64,000 bases of DNA from Patescibacteria group bacterium. Its GTDB lineage: Bacteria; Patescibacteriota; Minisyncoccia; Moranbacterales; UBA2206. Positions 7,954 through 36,026 of the stretch are shown piece after piece. A program made the position numbers and the translations under genes. How positions within the stretch are numbered: the first letter of the stretch is position 1; each line of letters starts with the position of its first letter. The notes under the pieces are model-generated. The model saw only the letters and a program-made list of their open reading frames with translations, searched no databases and had not been told where the DNA came from. The stretch lies in contig JAKLIG010000001.1 in the NCBI GenBank assembly GCA_022709735.1, forward strand, positions 256,586 through 320,585. Direction: 5' to 3'.

Positions 7954-8916
7954 CTACTTGGAAAGTAGAGTGGATAATTTTTTCTTAAACGCTTCAATTT
8001 CTTCGAAATTATGAATCGAAATCGGCAAAACATCCTGCTTAATTTTTGTTTTGATTTCTTTGATTTTTTTCTTCAAATCTTTTGGGGAAACTAAATCGCT
8101 TTTTGTTAGAAGCACAAGCTCTTTCTTTTTTAGAAGCTCTGTATTATAACTACTCAATTCTTTCCGAATTATTTCATAATCTTTCAAAATATTATTCGAT
8201 TCCAAAGACAAACAGTGGACCAAAATTTTTGTTCTTTGGATGTGGCGAAGGAATTTTATTCCAAGACCCTTGCCGGAAGACGCGCCTTCGATGAGGCCTG
8301 GAATATCAGCGATGATAAAATCATCCATCGCGCCTAAATTCGGTTCAAGCGTCGTGAAATGATAGGCGCCGACCTTGGCGTTGGCAGAAGTGAGTTCATT
8401 GAGAAGTGAAGATTTTCCGGCGCTTGGAAGGCCGATAAGGCCAACATCAGCAATAAGGCGAAGCTCCAGAGAAAAATTAAATTCTTCGCCAGGCCTTCCT
8501 TCTTCAAATTCTTCGGGGGTGGTGTTTTTGGAAGAACGAAAATAGAAATTTCCTCGTCCGCCTATTCCGCCTTTGGCCGCGAGAATTTTTTGTCCGACTT
8601 CGGTGATTTCCAAACTTTCTTTGGTTTCTAGACTTTGAATAACCGTCCCAATTGGAACAGTGAGAAATAGATCTTTTCCGGCTGGACCATCTGAACGGTT
8701 AGCTCGGCCTTTTTTTCCGTCCTCGGCATAATGATCTTTGAGATGGCGATATTTATTCAAGGCAAAAATATCAGCGACGCCTTCGAAATAGACGCTTCCG
8801 CCGTTTCCGCCTCGTCCACCAGTTGGTCCAAGCGCCATTTTGATTTTGTCAAAAGTGACGATTCCATCGCCTCCTTTGCCAGCTTCGACCTTAATTTTTG
8901 CTTCATCAGTGAGCAT
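7954..8916 (-). CDS. obg: GTPase Obg
   Basis: Gly-rich Obg fold (GGKGGDGIVTF, GGRGGNGG), G-domain motifs GLIGLPSAGKSSLL and DIPGLIEGA, and TKSD. Confidence 0.9.
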   Translation of the reverse strand: MLTDEAKIKVEAGKGGDGIVTFDKIKMALGPTGGRGGNGGSVYFEGVADIFALNKYRHLKDHYAEDGKKGRANRSDGPAGKDLFLTVPIGTVIQSLETKESLEITEVGQKILAAKGGIGGRGNFYFRSSKNTTPEEFEEGRPGEEFNFSLELRLIADVGLIGLPSAGKSSLLNELTSANAKVGAYHFTTLEPNLGAMDDFIIADIPGLIEGASSGKGLGIKFLRHIQRTKILVHCLSLESNNILKDYEIIRKELSSYNTELLKKKELVLLTKSDLVSPKDLKKKIKEIKTKIKQDVLPISIHNFEEIEAFKKKLSTLLSK

Positions 8917-31681: not shown

Positions 31682-33181
31682 TTAACCTTTTCCCAAAATT
31701 TTTACAATCCCCTTATCCGCATCAACTTCCACTAAATCCCCGTCATGCAGGACTTTCGTGGCAATTTTTGTGCCGATGATGCAGGGTTTTTTCATTTCCC
31801 GCGAAATTATAGCCGCATGGCACAATATGCCTCCCTGCTCAGTAATAAACGCTGAGGCTTTTTCCATCGCATGAATATAATTAGGATCTGTCATCGATAC
31901 CACAATAATATCCCCCTTGCTCACTTTTATTATCTCTTCGGGCGAATTTAGAACCTTGGCAGTTCCCGTGATAATACCTGGAAACGCAGTTTGCCCTTTG
32001 AAAATATTTCCTTTGACTTCATCTTTCGGAAAATTTATATAAGGCACAACTTTATCAGTTTCCTCTCCAAATAATTCATAACGCTCATCAGCGATGGCAA
32101 TCCCTAGTAAATTGTTTTTTCTTTTTTTTATTAAATCTTTATAATCAATTCTATTTTCTAACGCTAATTTAATTTCCCTGGAAGATAAATCTCTAATTTC
32201 AATAGTTTTTATTCCTAATCTCCAAGTAATCTCCCTAACAAGATCCCAAGCATTATGAAATGCGATGAAGGGAGTATCAACTCTAAATGATCTCAAAAAT
32301 CCGAAAGTTTGCACAGCTTGTGCAATAAGCCCAAAATTTCCATCATCTTTAATTTTTTTCATTAATTCTTTTTGCTTTTTTCTTAGAGATATTTCATTAT
32401 TGACTATCTTATCATATTCCATTTTATAATCTTCCTTCATTATATTTTTAAGTTTTCTAAGAAAAAAAGATTCTTCTAATGGAAGGTTGCCGAAATTTGG
32501 TATACTCATCCATCCATATTTTTGAGTATGTTTTTTTATTTTTGATAAAACTTTTTTATCAATTTCAGATATTTTTTTAGCAGCTATAGCTATTCTTAAC
32601 ATATCTAATCTCTCTTCTAGGGCAAAAATTTTTCTAGCTGGCAGCGTTAGAGCTGTTTCATATTCAAAATACTCGCTTTTTGATAGTTTATTCTTTTTGG
32701 TATATTTATTTAACAATTCATAAAATTTTCTTGATAAAAATTCATCCACCAAATGCATACTAAACATAAAAGGCGTATATTTTTTGATTTCTTCTATCAG
32801 TTCAATTATTTTTTTTGACAAATCATCATTGCTTAATTTTTTGGGTCTTATTTTTCTATATCCTTTTGAAAAATTTATTACATATTCTCCACGCTTCAAA
32901 CAATCCTTAGCATATTTATTTAGGTAATTTTTATCCTTTTTGTATTCAATACAAATCTTTTTATCCAAAGCATTCCATTCTTTTTCTAGGTCAAAATAGT
33001 CATTTTCATAATAAAATTGTTTTGTTTTCTTAAAAGGATGTCCTATTTTTTTCTGAAATTTAGTCATTTCTCCTTCAGCACAAATTTCATGTATAAGAAC
33101 ATTTTGGTTCCATGTCCCGCGTTTATGCCATTTTTCATTTTTTATTGAATTTATTATTTCTTTCAATTGGTTATTATGCAT
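31682..33181 (-). CDS. PEP-utilising-enzyme mobile (phospho-His swivel) domain protein, paralog A
   Basis: C-terminal GDIIVVSMTDPNYIHAMEKASAFITEQGGILCHAAIISREMKKPCIIG matches the PpsA/PPDK/RPH His-domain pattern. The N-terminal about 380 aa is Lys-rich and unassigned. Confidence 0.7.
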   Translation of the reverse strand: MHNNQLKEIINSIKNEKWHKRGTWNQNVLIHEICAEGEMTKFQKKIGHPFKKTKQFYYENDYFDLEKEWNALDKKICIEYKKDKNYLNKYAKDCLKRGEYVINFSKGYRKIRPKKLSNDDLSKKIIELIEEIKKYTPFMFSMHLVDEFLSRKFYELLNKYTKKNKLSKSEYFEYETALTLPARKIFALEERLDMLRIAIAAKKISEIDKKVLSKIKKHTQKYGWMSIPNFGNLPLEESFFLRKLKNIMKEDYKMEYDKIVNNEISLRKKQKELMKKIKDDGNFGLIAQAVQTFGFLRSFRVDTPFIAFHNAWDLVREITWRLGIKTIEIRDLSSREIKLALENRIDYKDLIKKRKNNLLGIAIADERYELFGEETDKVVPYINFPKDEVKGNIFKGQTAFPGIITGTAKVLNSPEEIIKVSKGDIIVVSMTDPNYIHAMEKASAFITEQGGILCHAAIISREMKKPCIIGTKIATKVLHDGDLVEVDADKGIVKILGKG

Positions 33182-33319
33182 ATTGTATCTAATTTATTGT
33201 ATTATTTTAAATGCTTGACTCCCGCTCAATTATATGCTAAAATGTTTAGTTCGAAATTGTTCCTACTATTTATTAAAAACTACCACAACTATAACCGCAA
33301 AACAAGGAGGAAAAAAACC

Positions 33320-33787
33320 GTGGAAAATCCAAAGGAAAGAAGAGTGCTGTGTGTGTGCTTTGGGAATTCTTGCCGATCTCCAATGATACAGGGATTGGCA
33401 AGGCAGGTGTTTAATGAAGCCTGTATGGGTCACATTAAATTCGAATCGGCTGGCACCAGCAAAGAGTTTGCCTCAAAAGGTGTTCCCGCAACTGATAAGT
33501 CGGTGATAGCTATGAATGCGCATAGCATCGACATATCCAAGCACATTAACCGTTACGCGGGCGACCTGCAACTCTCAGGATTTGATCTTTTTCTTACAAC
33601 CGGCCAGGATATAAATGATAGTCTTATTGAATTAGGTGTTTTACCTGATAAGATTATGGTGGTCGGAGGCGCAAATGGCATCCCTAATCCTTGGCAAAAG
33701 GATCAGGATGCCTACAGTGAATGCGCCGAAGCTATCAGGGGATGGCTGAACACAAACACTTGGAAAATCGTCAGCAAAGTCTTTTGA
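33320..33787 (+). CDS. low-molecular-weight protein tyrosine phosphatase / ArsC-type phosphatase
   Basis: P-loop VLCVCFGNSCRSPM (CX5R-S). The GTG start at 33320 is preceded by AGGAGG at 33305-33310. The track ORF (33167-) is an upstream extension. G+C is visibly higher than in neighbouring genes. Confidence 0.7.
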   Translation: MENPKERRVLCVCFGNSCRSPMIQGLARQVFNEACMGHIKFESAGTSKEFASKGVPATDKSVIAMNAHSIDISKHINRYAGDLQLSGFDLFLTTGQDINDSLIELGVLPDKIMVVGGANGIPNPWQKDQDAYSECAEAIRGWLNTNTWKIVSKVF

Positions 33788-33804
33788 TTTCCAGCCAATC
33801 AAGC

Positions 33805-33847
33805 GGATTGCTACTCCTCTCATGGGGTGGCAATCCGTCTTTTTTTA
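33805..33847 (+). terminator. intrinsic terminator after the LMW-PTP gene
   Basis: ggattgc...gcaatcc stem followed by gtcttttttta. Confidence 0.6.
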
Positions 33848-34929
33848 TCCAAAATTCTAACTATCCCTTTATTTGCATCAACTTCTACTAAATCACCATT
33901 TTTTATAATTTTAGTAGAATTAGTTACCTGAATAACACAGGGGATTTTTCTTTCTCGGCTGACCACTGCCGCATGAGATAAAAGTCCGCTTTGTTCCGCT
34001 ACTATTGCCGCCGCTTTATTGCAAAGCATAAGAGTATCTGGGCTGGTTGTTTCGGCAATTAAAATGTCTCCCTTTTTCATTTTTTTATTAATTTTTTCTA
34101 TAGCCTTATCATCATCTAGCATAGGAGAAATGATCGCTCTTCCAATAGCCCTTCCAGGACTAGCAACAATTCCTCCAATCATATTAGTGTCTTTATATTC
34201 AGTAAATTCTTTATTCAGCTTTATAGCCTTTTTGTATGAAAAAATTATTAGTTCTCCATTTATACTTGTAGCGCTATAACACTTGCTTCTTTCTTGCATA
34301 AGTTTTTTGTTTGGTCTCCAGCCATCAAAAGTTTTTAACAATTCTTCTATAAAAAGATAATCCGCGCCATTTTTTGATTCTAATATGTTATTTGATACAT
34401 AAGATACAAGATTTTCAATGACTCCCTTTTTGAAAAAAAATTTATTCATCAATTTTCTTGCTGTAAATTTATATTCACCTGCTAAATTTAGTCGCCTTTT
34501 CATAGCTTTATTATTTTCTTTTTCTGCTTTTTTATAGGCCATATCCTGATATGGAAATTCAGACATTCCATATAAATACCAAAATTTTTGAAGGTAATTA
34601 AAGGCTTCCTGAAATTGTTTCTTGGTCAATTTTTTTATCGGCTTTCCAAATCTAGCAACGAAAATTTTATTCCCATAATCAACGGATTTTCTAAATTCTT
34701 CCGAATATTTTTTATATCTTTTTTCACTGCTATAAATTTTTATTCCCTCTTTTCCGCAAATTATTTCTTTATTTTTATTAATATAAATTTCAAATTGACA
34801 TTTTTTATAAGTTAAAAAAACATCTGCTTTGGCTATTGAACTTCGCAAGAGAAAACTAGCATTAAAACACCTGACTTTTACTGGTGTTGAAAAAAATTTC
34901 TTAAAATCTTTCGGATTTAAATTTTTCAT
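33820..34929 (-). CDS. PEP-utilising-enzyme mobile domain protein, paralog B
   Basis: Carries GGIVASPGRAIGRAI...GDILIAETTSPDTLMLCNKAAAIVAEQSGLLSHAAVVSRERKIPCVI. Confidence 0.7.
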   Translation of the reverse strand: MKNLNPKDFKKFFSTPVKVRCFNASFLLRSSIAKADVFLTYKKCQFEIYINKNKEIICGKEGIKIYSSEKRYKKYSEEFRKSVDYGNKIFVARFGKPIKKLTKKQFQEAFNYLQKFWYLYGMSEFPYQDMAYKKAEKENNKAMKRRLNLAGEYKFTARKLMNKFFFKKGVIENLVSYVSNNILESKNGADYLFIEELLKTFDGWRPNKKLMQERSKCYSATSINGELIIFSYKKAIKLNKEFTEYKDTNMIGGIVASPGRAIGRAIISPMLDDDKAIEKINKKMKKGDILIAETTSPDTLMLCNKAAAIVAEQSGLLSHAAVVSRERKIPCVIQVTNSTKIIKNGDLVEVDANKGIVRILDKKRRIATP

Positions 34930-36026
34930 TTTAATATTTTAACAATCCCCTTATTCGCATCGACTTCTACTAAATCACCATCTTTTAAGACTTTCGTGGC
35001 GATTTTAGTGCCGATGATACAGGGGATATTCAGCTCTCGGGAAATAATAGCTGCATGAGAAGTGATCCCACCTTCATTAGTAATTATAGCACCCGCTTTT
35101 TTTATAGCTGTTATAATTTCAGGACCAGTAGTCGCTGCCACTAAAATATCCCCTTTTTTAACCTTTTTTATTTCGTTAACTATATTATCGCTAAAAATTG
35201 TTTTTATAACAATAACCCTTCCTTTTATAATACTACCTTTATTGGCGACATGACCCTTTATTATTGTTATTTTTTTATTAAAAAAATAATCATCCAATTT
35301 TTCCATTAATCTTTTGGCTTTTTCTCCTTCAATTAACTGCCAATTATTTTTTTGAGCCAATACCCAATATTTTCTATCTCGTTTTGATTGAATAATGCAT
35401 TTCCCATTCCCATCAATGATATCCGCTATTTCTTTGAAGCTAAGCCAAGGGAGATCCTTGCGACCAATCCTAGCAATCATTTCGACTATATAAGGCTTGA
35501 AGATAATATTATAATTGTAGAAACTATTCAGAATATTCCTAGCCTTAAATTTAATTTTACCAACTTCCCTTAGATGGTCAGTTAATTTATTTGACTTGCT
35601 TGTTATTTTTTCAATTTCATCCAAAAAGAAGAATTCTGTGTAAAAATAATTTCCTCCCAACTTCTGGAATAAAGCAACTCGTTTTAAAAATTCATTTTTT
35701 ATTTTATCATTTGTAAAATATTTTATCTTATTTTTGTTTTTCTTTGTTTCGGCGATTAATTTTTTTCCATTTTTTATATCATTTAAAATTTTTAGACGCC
35801 AACTTAGAAATTCCTTTCCTGAATTAAAAAATCTCAAGCCTAAGCGTGAGAATTTTTTTCTTTGATTCCTTGAAAGGTAAAATTTTAATCCTTTATCTTT
35901 ATAATCATATACTAAAATAATATCTGATTTTCTGAATTCCTCAAACAAATAACAAGATGTAAAAATAAAATTTACATCATGGTCTGTCCATAAATAATCA
36001 TAATTTTTCGGGCTTATTTGATTCAT
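34926..36026 (-). CDS. PEP-utilising-enzyme mobile domain protein, paralog C
   Basis: Carries GDILVAATTGPEIITAIKKAGAIITNEGGITSHAAIISRELNIPCIIG. The stop overlaps the start of paralog B (ATGA). Confidence 0.7.
   Translation of the reverse strand: MNQISPKNYDYLWTDHDVNFIFTSCYLFEEFRKSDIILVYDYKDKGLKFYLSRNQRKKFSRLGLRFFNSGKEFLSWRLKILNDIKNGKKLIAETKKNKNKIKYFTNDKIKNEFLKRVALFQKLGGNYFYTEFFFLDEIEKITSKSNKLTDHLREVGKIKFKARNILNSFYNYNIIFKPYIVEMIARIGRKDLPWLSFKEIADIIDGNGKCIIQSKRDRKYWVLAQKNNWQLIEGEKAKRLMEKLDDYFFNKKITIIKGHVANKGSIIKGRVIVIKTIFSDNIVNEIKKVKKGDILVAATTGPEIITAIKKAGAIITNEGGITSHAAIISRELNIPCIIGTKIATKVLKDGDLVEVDANKGIVKILK

What the first reader, a model, noticed from the sequence alone, without database searches (positions are those of the whole stretch)
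31682..36026. Tandem triplication of PEP-utiliser phospho-His swivel-domain proteins with divergent N-terminal domains, interrupted by a compositionally foreign LMW-PTP gene
Three adjacent minus-strand paralogs (499, 369 and 366 aa) share only a C-terminal domain of about 110 aa. It carries the ...ASPG.A.G...GDIL...T.P....AAAI.TE.GG..SHAA(I/V)(I/V)SRE..IPC(I/V)(I/V)G pattern of the swivelling phosphohistidine domain of PEP synthase, PPDK and rifampin phosphotransferase. None has a PEP/pyruvate TIM-barrel domain. The N-terminal 250-380 aa are Lys-rich, mutually divergent and unassigned. This His-domain-at-C-terminus layout resembles rifampin phosphotransferase (RPH) without its substrate-binding middle domain, which suggests small-molecule or protein phosphotransferases of unknown substrate. 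Between paralogs A and B, on the opposite strand, sits a CX5R-S low-molecular-weight phosphatase gene. It has clearly higher G+C than its surroundings, its own SD-preceded GTG start and its own terminator (33805-33847), so it looks like a later insertion into the array.
Basis: partly seen in the sequence, partly recalled or inferred. Interest (0 to 1): 0.65.

Follow-up and report, generated by a model that had tools for sequence, protein, structure and literature searches.

The report
Orphan acceptor subunits of split dikinases
Three neighbouring genes in a Candidatus Moranbacteria genome encode the substrate-binding and phosphate-carrying half of rifampin-phosphotransferase-like kinases without the ATP-binding half, and the small phosphatase-like gene among them is an old, conserved partner rather than a foreign insertion.

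Summary
The sequence observation holds. Three minus-strand ORFs (A 499 aa, B 369 aa, C 366 aa) each end in a PF00391 phosphohistidine swivel domain. None has a PEP/pyruvate barrel. A GC-rich LMW-PTP gene with its own SD, GTG start and terminator sits between A and B.

The interpretation needs two corrections.

1. The N-terminal domains can be assigned. They are the rifampin-binding-type middle domain of RPH. AF2 models have pLDDT 95, and Foldseek puts Listeria RPH on top over up to 569 columns. The missing part is therefore the ATP-grasp domain, not the substrate domain. This is the architecture of the acceptor component of two-component dikinases (HpeHI, CreHI, PpsAB). Orthologous arrays elsewhere hold up to 12 units or more and carry a stand-alone PPDK_N gene. 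B-type relatives are fused to PPDK_N. No PPDK_N lies within about 82 kb here.

2. The PTP is not a later insertion. In 15 of 21 loci fetched by PTP homology it lies convergent to a B-type dikinase. The two stops are 26-32 bp apart in 10 of 11 loci measured, around a hairpin. dS is the same as for B (1.33 against 1.26). The catalytic Asp is always Asn, and the high GC3 recurs in most loci.

Verdict: a new variant of a known kind. The substrate and the role of the PTP remain unknown.

The parts
34926..36026 (-). Gene C (366 aa). It has a short RIF-binding-like helical domain of about 255 aa and a C-terminal swivel domain (nt 34929-35255). The catalytic His324 codon is 35055-35057 and the motif is GGITSH. 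C is a typical member of a family conserved in CPR bacteria and DPANN archaea. It starts 9 bp after the clpB stop.
33820..34929 (-). Gene B (369 aa). Same architecture as C, with the swivel domain at nt 33823-34182, the His319 codon at 33973-33975 and the motif SGLLSH. Its start overlaps the stop of C (ATGA). It is the ATP-grasp-less counterpart of the PTP-linked single-chain dikinases: 33% identity to residues 374-672 of the 673-aa protein in L022.
33803..33848 (+). Hairpin with a 15-bp stem plus a T-run, lying in the 32-bp gap between the convergent PTP and B stops and running into the 3' end of B. An equivalent GC-rich hairpin sits in the junction in all 11 related loci measured; the gap is 26-32 bp in 10 of them and 64 bp in L020.
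33320..33787 (+). LMW-PTP-like gene (155 aa, GTG start). The P-loop C13-X5-R19-S20 is at nt 33356-33379, with an extra Cys at position -2 (LCVCFGNSCRS). Asn123 replaces the general-acid Asp (IPNPW, nt 33680-33694). It has the highest GC and GC3 in the window.
33215..33311 (+). Promoter-like site (TTGACT-17-TAAAAT with TG, 33215-33243) and Shine-Dalgarno AAGGAGG (33305-33311) for the PTP gene, in the 138-bp divergent region shared with gene A.
31682..33181 (-). Gene A (499 aa). It has a full-size RIF-binding-like helical domain of about 390 aa and a swivel domain (nt 31685-32014). The His455 codon is 31817-31819 and the motif is GGILCH. Its family has 4,947 clusters at 50% identity in the library.

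Best explanation
A, B and C are three anciently diverged acceptor/carrier subunits of RPH-type ATP-dependent small-molecule dikinases. Each has a helical RIF-binding-like substrate domain followed by a phosphohistidine swivel domain, and none has its own ATP-grasp domain. This is the 'H/A' half of two-component dikinases such as HpeHI, CreHI and PpsAB.

Proposed mechanism, which is inferred and not shown:
1. A separately encoded PPDK_N-type ATP-grasp protein, not present in this window, binds ATP and phosphorylates the conserved His (A H455, B H319, C H324).
2. The swivel domain then turns to the N-terminal domain of its own protein.
3. It passes the phosphoryl group to a bound small-molecule acceptor. 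The acceptor differs for each paralogue and is unknown.

The LMW-PTP-like gene is an integral, co-inherited partner of the B-type unit. It is transcribed convergently and shares a terminator hairpin with B. It has an intact Cys-X5-Arg P-loop but Asn in place of the general-acid Asp. It most likely removes or accepts the phosphoryl group from the product or from the phospho-His carrier, as a reset or counter-activity.
For: Shown:
- PF00391 with the catalytic His motif is present in all three proteins.
- High-confidence models (pLDDT 94.7 and 95.5) have Listeria RPH as top Foldseek hits, well beyond the swivel domain.
- The A-type domain occupies the middle of a PPDK_N + middle domain + swivel protein (P0142).
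- The B-type unit is fused behind PPDK_N in the 673-aa ORF of L022 and the 1046-aa ORF of L010.
- Orthologous arrays carry a stand-alone PPDK_N gene: L006 has 12 swivel units plus a 315-aa PPDK_N; L111 has 8 units plus a 347-aa PPDK_N; in L112 the A orthologue is followed directly by a 325-aa PPDK_N.
- The two-component mechanism is established experimentally for HpeHI (PMC12167813).
- B is under purifying selection, dN/dS 0.12.

PTP partnership:
- 15 of 21 PTP-homologue loci have a convergent swivel or PPDK_N gene.
- The junction hairpin is conserved.
- Asn replaces Asp in every PTP that has a swivel gene next to it and whose motif is on the contig, while the one Asp-containing homologue (L027) has no dikinase nearby.
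- dS is equal to that of B.
Against: - No PPDK_N is encoded in the 64-kb window, in 10 kb further left, or in 7.8 kb further right (tblastn, phmmer and a 14-sequence HMM with best E 0.47, plus Pfam lists). The required partner is therefore unverified in this genome.
- The middle domains show no sequence similarity to PpsA/HpeH-type proteins. NCBIfam PRK08296 matches cover only the swivel domain.
- The A-domain profile finds no PDB chain by sequence.
- C-type genes often stand alone without a nearby PPDK_N (L001-L003).
- No substrate is known.
- Convergent, separate transcription of the PTP does not prove a functional link.
Confidence: 0.68

Rival explanations
1. Orphaned carriers that work without an ATP-grasp partner. 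The proteins move phosphoryl groups between phosphorylated metabolites and acceptors (phosphomutase or transphosphorylase mode), or they are charged by another donor system, for example the organism's own PPDK or PEP synthase.
For: No PPDK_N lies within about 82 kb. C-type genes are commonly solitary in CPR and DPANN genomes. HpeH alone catalyses phosphotransfer from 4-phosphoacetophenone to acetovanillone (PMC12167813).
Against: All closer relatives of A and B are fused to a PPDK_N or sit next to one. Only about a quarter of the 326-kb contig, and none of the rest of the genome, could be inspected.
Confidence: 0.15
2. A His-to-Cys phosphorelay. The PTP-like protein lacks the general acid and acts as a Cys-phosphocarrier, as PTS EIIB-cellobiose does with the same fold, downstream of the swivel His, rather than as a hydrolase.
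For: Asn replaces the catalytic Asp in every PTP with an adjacent swivel gene whose motif is on the contig, while the Cys-X5-Arg-Ser loop and an extra Cys at -2 are kept. The pairing with a His-carrier enzyme is tight. That EIIB-cellobiose has an LMW-PTP-like fold, and that Asp-to-Asn/Ala LMW-PTP mutants trap the Cys-phosphate intermediate, rests on my own knowledge and was not checked here.
Against: No fusion, interaction or downstream acceptor was found. No other gene is conserved around the module. The intact Arg-Ser P-loop is equally compatible with a phosphatase acting on good leaving groups.
Confidence: 0.1
3. One reading: RPH-like proteins that lack the substrate-binding middle domain, with a compositionally foreign LMW-PTP gene inserted later into the array.
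For: Pfam assigns nothing to the N-terminal regions. The PTP is the GC and GC3 outlier of the window at about +3 sd.
Against: Structure and sequence place the N-domains in the RPH middle domain. PTP synteny is conserved across about 8 lineages, dS is equal to that of B, and the GC3 excess recurs in most loci.
Confidence: 0.02
4. A protein-directed kinase and phosphatase pair tied to proteostasis. C and B follow htrA-clpB in one transcription unit, and the PTP would reverse phosphorylation of a protein residue, by analogy with McsB/YwlE/ClpC.
For: htrA overlaps clpB, clpB ends 9 bp before C, and C overlaps B by 4 bp. A second htrA-like gene and a PpiC-type gene are nearby.
Against: The clpB/htrA context is not seen in any related locus. 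Only the dikinase and the PTP are conserved neighbours. The fold relatives bind small molecules.
Confidence: 0.05

Closest known systems
Two-component small-molecule dikinases HpeHI, CreHI and PpsAB (phenylphosphate synthase)
   Same: The acceptor component is a RIF-binding-like domain plus a C-terminal swivel His domain, and the ATP-grasp is a separate polypeptide (PMC12167813). Orthologous arrays here have exactly such a stand-alone PPDK_N.
   Different: There is no detectable sequence similarity in the middle domain; PRK08296 models match only the swivel. The proteins are smaller (366-499 aa against about 600-640). There are many paralogues per ATP-grasp gene. No ATP-grasp gene lies near the triplet in this genome. 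A conserved LMW-PTP-like partner is present. The hosts are CPR and DPANN organisms, and there is no aromatic-catabolism context.
Rifampin phosphotransferase RPH (Listeria; PDB 5FBS/5FBT/5FBU/5HV1) and the PRK06241, PigC and RedH relatives
   Same: Best structural match for A and C, covering both the middle domain and the swivel domain. B aligns to RPH residues 662-867 by sequence. The swivel domain is at the C-terminus.
   Different: The ATP-grasp domain is absent. NCBIfam RPH scores are 48-67 bits against a cut-off of 999. The middle domain of B and C is only about 250 aa.
PEP synthase and pyruvate phosphate dikinase
   Same: The swivel domain is 40-50% identical, and C keeps the GGxTSH motif.
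   Different: There is no ATP-grasp and no PEP/pyruvate TIM barrel, and the swivel domain is terminal rather than central.
Low-molecular-weight protein tyrosine phosphatases (Wzb, PtpA, YwlE) and LMW-PTP-type ArsC
   Same: PF01451 match, the CX5R(S) P-loop, and overall alignment to Wzb and to a PDB chain labelled RpiB (4EGS).
   Different: The general-acid Asp of the DPY loop is Asn in this whole subfamily. There is an extra Cys two residues before the nucleophile. The partner is a dikinase, not a BY-kinase. Scores are far below the NCBIfam equivalog cut-offs.

Membership tests
PEP-utiliser mobile (swivel) phosphohistidine domain, PF00391 | Pfam match above the gathering score | tested here: met
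   76-87 bits against a cut-off of 23.1 in A, B and C
PEP-utiliser mobile (swivel) phosphohistidine domain, PF00391 | Conserved catalytic His in a G-G-x-x-(S/C)-H-A-A motif | tested here: met
   A has GGILCH455, B has SGLLSH319 and C has GGITSH324. In B the first Gly is Ser, as in its orthologues.
PEP synthase / PPDK | N-terminal PPDK_N ATP-grasp domain | tested here: not met
   No PF01326 hit in A, B or C
PEP synthase / PPDK | PEP/pyruvate-binding TIM barrel (PEP-utilizers_C) | tested here: not met
   No hit in A, B or C or in neighbouring genes. NCBIfam scores are 72-111 bits against cut-offs of 598-740.
RPH-type single-chain dikinase | RIF-binding-like helical middle domain | tested here: met
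   Foldseek: A against 5FBT/5HV1/5FBU, E 3e-14, 461-569 columns, TMq 0.54-0.58. C against 5FBU, E 5e-10, 284 columns. B aligns to RPH 662-867 by phmmer.
RPH-type single-chain dikinase | ATP-grasp domain in the same polypeptide | tested here: not met
   Absent from A, B and C. Present in relatives P0142, L022 and L010.
RPH-type single-chain dikinase | NCBIfam equivalog score (NF041857) | tested here: not met
   48-67 bits against a cut-off of 999
Two-component dikinase, acceptor (H/A) component | Middle domain plus swivel, without ATP-grasp | tested here: met
Two-component dikinase, acceptor (H/A) component | Cognate stand-alone ATP-grasp (I/B) component encoded in the genome, usually adjacent | tested here: inconclusive
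   None in the window or in about 18 kb of flanks. Present beside orthologous arrays L006, L111 and L112.
Two-component dikinase, acceptor (H/A) component | Sequence membership in the PpsA/HpeH/CreH clade (about 45% mutual identity) | tested here: not met
   PRK08296 models match only the swivel region
Two-component dikinase, acceptor (H/A) component | ATP-dependent, His-dependent phosphorylation of a small molecule that needs both components | not testable with these tools
   Biochemical assay required
LMW-PTP (PF01451) | Pfam match and CX5R(S/T) P-loop | tested here: met
   54 bits against a cut-off of 23.2; C13-FGNSC-R19-S20
LMW-PTP (PF01451) | General-acid Asp in the D-P-Y loop | tested here: not met
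   Asn123 (IPNPW) aligns with the Asp of 4EGS, 1P8A and Wzb. Asn is also found in every PTP with an adjacent swivel gene whose motif is on the contig.
PTS EIIB-cellobiose-type Cys phosphocarrier | Stable Cys-phosphate that receives the phosphoryl group from a His carrier | not tested
   A hypothesis drawn from the missing general acid. No structure or assay was available.

The most novel reading that the evidence does not exclude
CPR bacteria carry a previously undescribed three-part phosphoryl-transfer module. One PPDK_N ATP-grasp unit charges many interchangeable subunits, each made of an acceptor domain and a swivel His domain. These subunits form arrays of 3 to more than 12 paralogues, and the A-type family alone has about 5,000 clusters at 50% identity. 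The B-type core is locked to a convergently transcribed LMW-PTP-like protein that has lost its general acid. That protein would act as a dedicated phospho-His or aryl-phosphate reset enzyme, or as a Cys-phosphocarrier. The paralogue arrays would give these episymbionts a combinatorial repertoire for phosphorylating small molecules, for example to inactivate antibiotics or phenolic compounds.
Probability: 0.3. Interest if true: 0.8.

Novelty: new variant of a known kind. Interest (0 to 1): 0.62.

Why it matters
Split RPH-like dikinases were recognised as a subfamily only in 2025, and only for aromatic catabolism in free-living bacteria. This locus and its relatives show three further things.
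- The same two-part logic is greatly expanded in CPR bacteria, which have small genomes, and one subfamily is shared with DPANN archaea.
- One ATP-grasp gene often accompanies many acceptor subunits.
- One subfamily has a conserved LMW-PTP-like partner that lacks its general acid.

If the model holds, it gives a concrete, testable biochemical function to thousands of proteins now annotated only as 'PEP-utilizing enzyme' in organisms whose metabolism is poorly understood. It would also define a new kinase/phosphatase or His-to-Cys relay pairing. For genome annotation, it warns that a GC outlier is not necessarily a foreign gene.

Tried and rejected
The exhaustive HMMER search was needed instead.
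- The A-domain profile against PDB sequences gave no meaningful hit. Only the structure comparison linked it to RPH.
- Viral contigs: the A-type query recovered, with one exception (L105, query residues 242-491), only generic swivel domains of phage and giant-virus PEP-synthase-like genes, and the PTP query recovered nothing. There is no sign of a viral origin.
- PADLOC: no defence-system match.
- PPDK_N was searched for in the window by tblastn, phmmer and a 14-sequence HMM, and in both flanks. None was found.
- Gene conversion between the A and C swivel domains (62% identity) was rejected. The shared C-terminal motif is the consensus of both families.
- 'Foreign insertion' of the PTP was rejected on synteny, dS and the recurring GC3 excess.
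- The clpB/htrA functional link is judged weak, because that context is not conserved.
- Literature searches found no description of these arrays or of a dikinase-PTP pairing. One resistome survey only counts rph-like genes in CPR genomes (PMC8651080).

Full report
ORGANISM AND OBSERVATION

The window (GC 0.351) comes from a Candidatus Moranbacteria (CPR/Patescibacteria) contig of 326 kb.

Each has a single Pfam hit, PF00391, at the C-terminus (E 1e-21 to 7e-25). None has PPDK_N or a PEP/pyruvate barrel. NCBIfam scores are far below every equivalog cut-off. The catalytic His sits in GGILCH (A), SGLLSH (B) and GGITSH (C).

The LMW-PTP gene has these features:
- PF01451, E 2e-14.
- A promoter-like site at 33215-33243.
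- AAGGAGG 9 nt before GTG 33320.
- A 15-bp hairpin with a T-run at 33803-33848, which runs into the 3' end of B.

It is the GC and GC3 maximum among 53 ORFs (0.453 and 0.455, about +3 sd). A, B and C are near the minimum. The raw observation therefore stands. The exception is the claim that the paralogues share only the C-terminus. B and C align end to end (30% identity, E 2e-41).

WHAT THE N-TERMINAL DOMAINS ARE

B residues 149-361 align to Listeria RPH residues 662-867 and to positions 650-868 of RPH/PRK06241 models. That reaches well upstream of the swivel domain.

AF2 models built on family alignments are very confident: C has pLDDT 94.7 and A has 95.5. Foldseek against the PDB puts RPH structures on top in both cases:
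- C: E 5e-10 over 269-288 columns.
- A: E 3e-14 over 445-569 columns, TMq 0.53-0.58.

All other hits cover only the roughly 110-residue swivel domain.

An HMM of the A-type N-domain finds 4,947 clusters at 50% identity in 1.84 billion representatives. Among them is P0142 (829 aa), which reads PPDK_N 17-315, A-type domain 317-713, swivel 752-822. That is the RPH layout.

The N-domains are thus the RIF-binding-type substrate domain, and the missing part is the ATP-grasp. This is the architecture of the acceptor component of the two-component dikinases HpeHI, CreHI and PpsAB. In those enzymes a separate ATP-grasp protein charges the swivel His (PMC12167813).

THREE OLD SUBFAMILIES, NOT A RECENT TRIPLICATION

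A has few close orthologues (64%, 44% and 39% identity) inside the very large A-type family.

C is a typical member (52-63% identity) of a family of roughly 350-390-aa proteins. That family occurs in CPR bacteria and in Woesearchaeota. Locus L002 carries archaeal ribosomal proteins, while L003 carries murG/ftsW.

B belongs to a small divergent branch, with P0008 at 72% and P0009 at 61% identity. The C-terminal motif shared by A and C is the consensus of both families, so gene conversion need not be invoked.

CONTEXT ELSEWHERE

The closest relative is L004/L006, where the B orthologue is 76% identical. It has 12 swivel units within the 21.5-kb locus, and the array continues beyond it. The same PTP lies on the opposite strand inside the array, and a stand-alone 315-aa PPDK_N follows.

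Other arrays:
- L111 (A orthologue, 39% identity): 8 units and a 347-aa PPDK_N.
- L112 (A orthologue, 44% identity): the A orthologue is followed directly by a 325-aa PPDK_N.
- L007: 6 units among KilA-N, Bro-N and Phd/ParE genes, with no PPDK_N in 21 kb.

Some database entries fuse 2-4 units, for example P0060 with four swivel domains and one PPDK_N.

In the window itself no PPDK_N exists, nor in 10 kb further left or 7.8 kb further right. That is the main gap in the model for this genome.

THE PTP IS A CONSERVED PARTNER

I used the PTP itself as the query. In 15 of 21 loci from GTDB genomes and JGI metagenomes, the PTP is convergent with one to four B-type middle-plus-swivel units preceded by PPDK_N. 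These loci include Saccharibacteria, have locus GC of 0.39-0.56, and represent about 8 distinct lineages.

Often the dikinase is a single ORF: 673 aa in L022 (PPDK_N + middle domain + swivel) and 1046 aa in L010 (PPDK_N + two units). B residues 60-360 are 33% identical to L022 residues 374-672 (E 9e-49). The loci without a dikinase are mostly too short to tell.

Further points:
- The two stop codons are 26-32 bp apart (64 bp in L020), and a GC-rich hairpin fills the gap in all 11 loci measured.
- Every PTP with an adjacent swivel gene whose motif is on the contig has Asn where LMW-PTPs have the general-acid Asp ([PSLT]-N-P-[YWF]). All keep LCVCFGN(S/T)CRSP. The one homologue with Asp (L027) has no dikinase nearby.
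- No other gene family is conserved around the module.
- Between the window and L006, dS is 1.26 for B and 1.33 for the PTP, with dN/dS 0.12 and 0.22. The two genes have therefore diverged together under purifying selection.
- The PTP's GC and GC3 excess over the adjacent dikinase genes recurs in most loci, for example GC3 0.657 against 0.24-0.27 in L016.

High GC is thus a maintained, unexplained property of this gene and not evidence of recent import.

MECHANISM

Shown: the domain composition, the fold relationship to RPH, the conserved His, the co-occurrence with PPDK_N in relatives, and the conserved PTP synteny.

Inferred:
- An ATP-grasp protein encoded elsewhere phosphorylates the His.
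- The swivel domain delivers the phosphoryl group to a small molecule bound in the N-domain.
- The paralogues differ in their acceptor.
- The PTP-like protein reverses or relays the phosphorylation.

Characterised two-component members all phosphorylate phenolic hydroxyls, and LMW-PTPs hydrolyse aryl phosphates. A cycle of phenol or tyrosine-like phosphorylation and dephosphorylation is therefore chemically coherent, but it is untested. The Asp-to-Asn change would be expected to cripple classical turnover and to stabilise a Cys-phosphate. This expectation rests on my own knowledge of LMW-PTP mutants and of the LMW-PTP-like fold of PTS EIIB-cellobiose. A His-to-Cys relay therefore remains open.

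LOCAL OPERON STRUCTURE

htrA overlaps clpB. clpB ends 9 bp before C. C and B overlap by ATGA. A is followed by a DUF5656 membrane protein and a second htrA-like gene. This proteostasis context is not conserved elsewhere, so I give it little weight.

VERDICT

I file it as a new variant of a known kind (split RPH-like dikinases). It has three features I could not find described:
- large paralogue arrays in CPR genomes;
- a conserved LMW-PTP-like partner that lacks its general acid;
- here, an array with no ATP-grasp gene nearby.

Noticed in passing
window 9085-9520, minus strand: A non-coding stretch of about 450 nt with GC 0.41-0.61, flanked by spacers of GC 0.11-0.18, between yidD (9570-9830) and obg (7954-8916). 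RNAfold gives -173.8 kcal/mol, z = -6.4, and the stretch ends in a 15-bp hairpin plus a U-run. There is no Rfam family match and ARAGORN does not call it tmRNA. It is a candidate unclassified structured RNA.
   Followed up: partly
window 33320-33787 and loci L006, L013-L029: The PTP gene has GC3 0.1-0.4 above the adjacent dikinase genes in most loci, although synonymous sites are saturated (dS about 1.3). This gene-specific compositional anomaly is conserved and unexplained.
   Followed up: partly
window 34926-36026; L001, L002 (Woesearchaeota); L003 (CPR): The C-type protein is 54-58% identical between this CPR bacterium and DPANN archaea. That suggests transfer of a conserved single-copy gene between the two domains of life.
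   Followed up: partly
proteins P0059-P0061, P0071, P0086 and others (library hits): ORFs of 900-2300 aa contain 2-4 fused middle-plus-swivel units, and one (P0060) has an internal PPDK_N. They may be real polyproteins or artefacts of gene calling or genetic code.
   Followed up: no
L007 16237-20631: KilA-N, Bro-N and Phd/ParE toxin-antitoxin genes are interspersed in an A-type array of a Patescibacteria genome. This hints that arrays sit in variable or mobile regions.
   Followed up: no
L006 16945-17601, minus strand: A 218-aa ORF with no Pfam hit and GC 0.495 in a locus of GC 0.33, lying between the array and the PPDK_N gene. It is a second GC outlier on the opposite strand.
   Followed up: no
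window 58497-58835, minus strand: Bacterial RNase P RNA class A (RF00010, 129.6 bits). No tRNA gene was found anywhere in the 64 kb.
   Followed up: yes
L001 9405-12579: In a Woesearchaeota genome the C-type gene overlaps the end of a Metallophos phosphatase gene and is followed by a second 423-aa swivel protein. This is another pairing of a phosphatase with swivel proteins, using an unrelated phosphatase fold.
   Followed up: no
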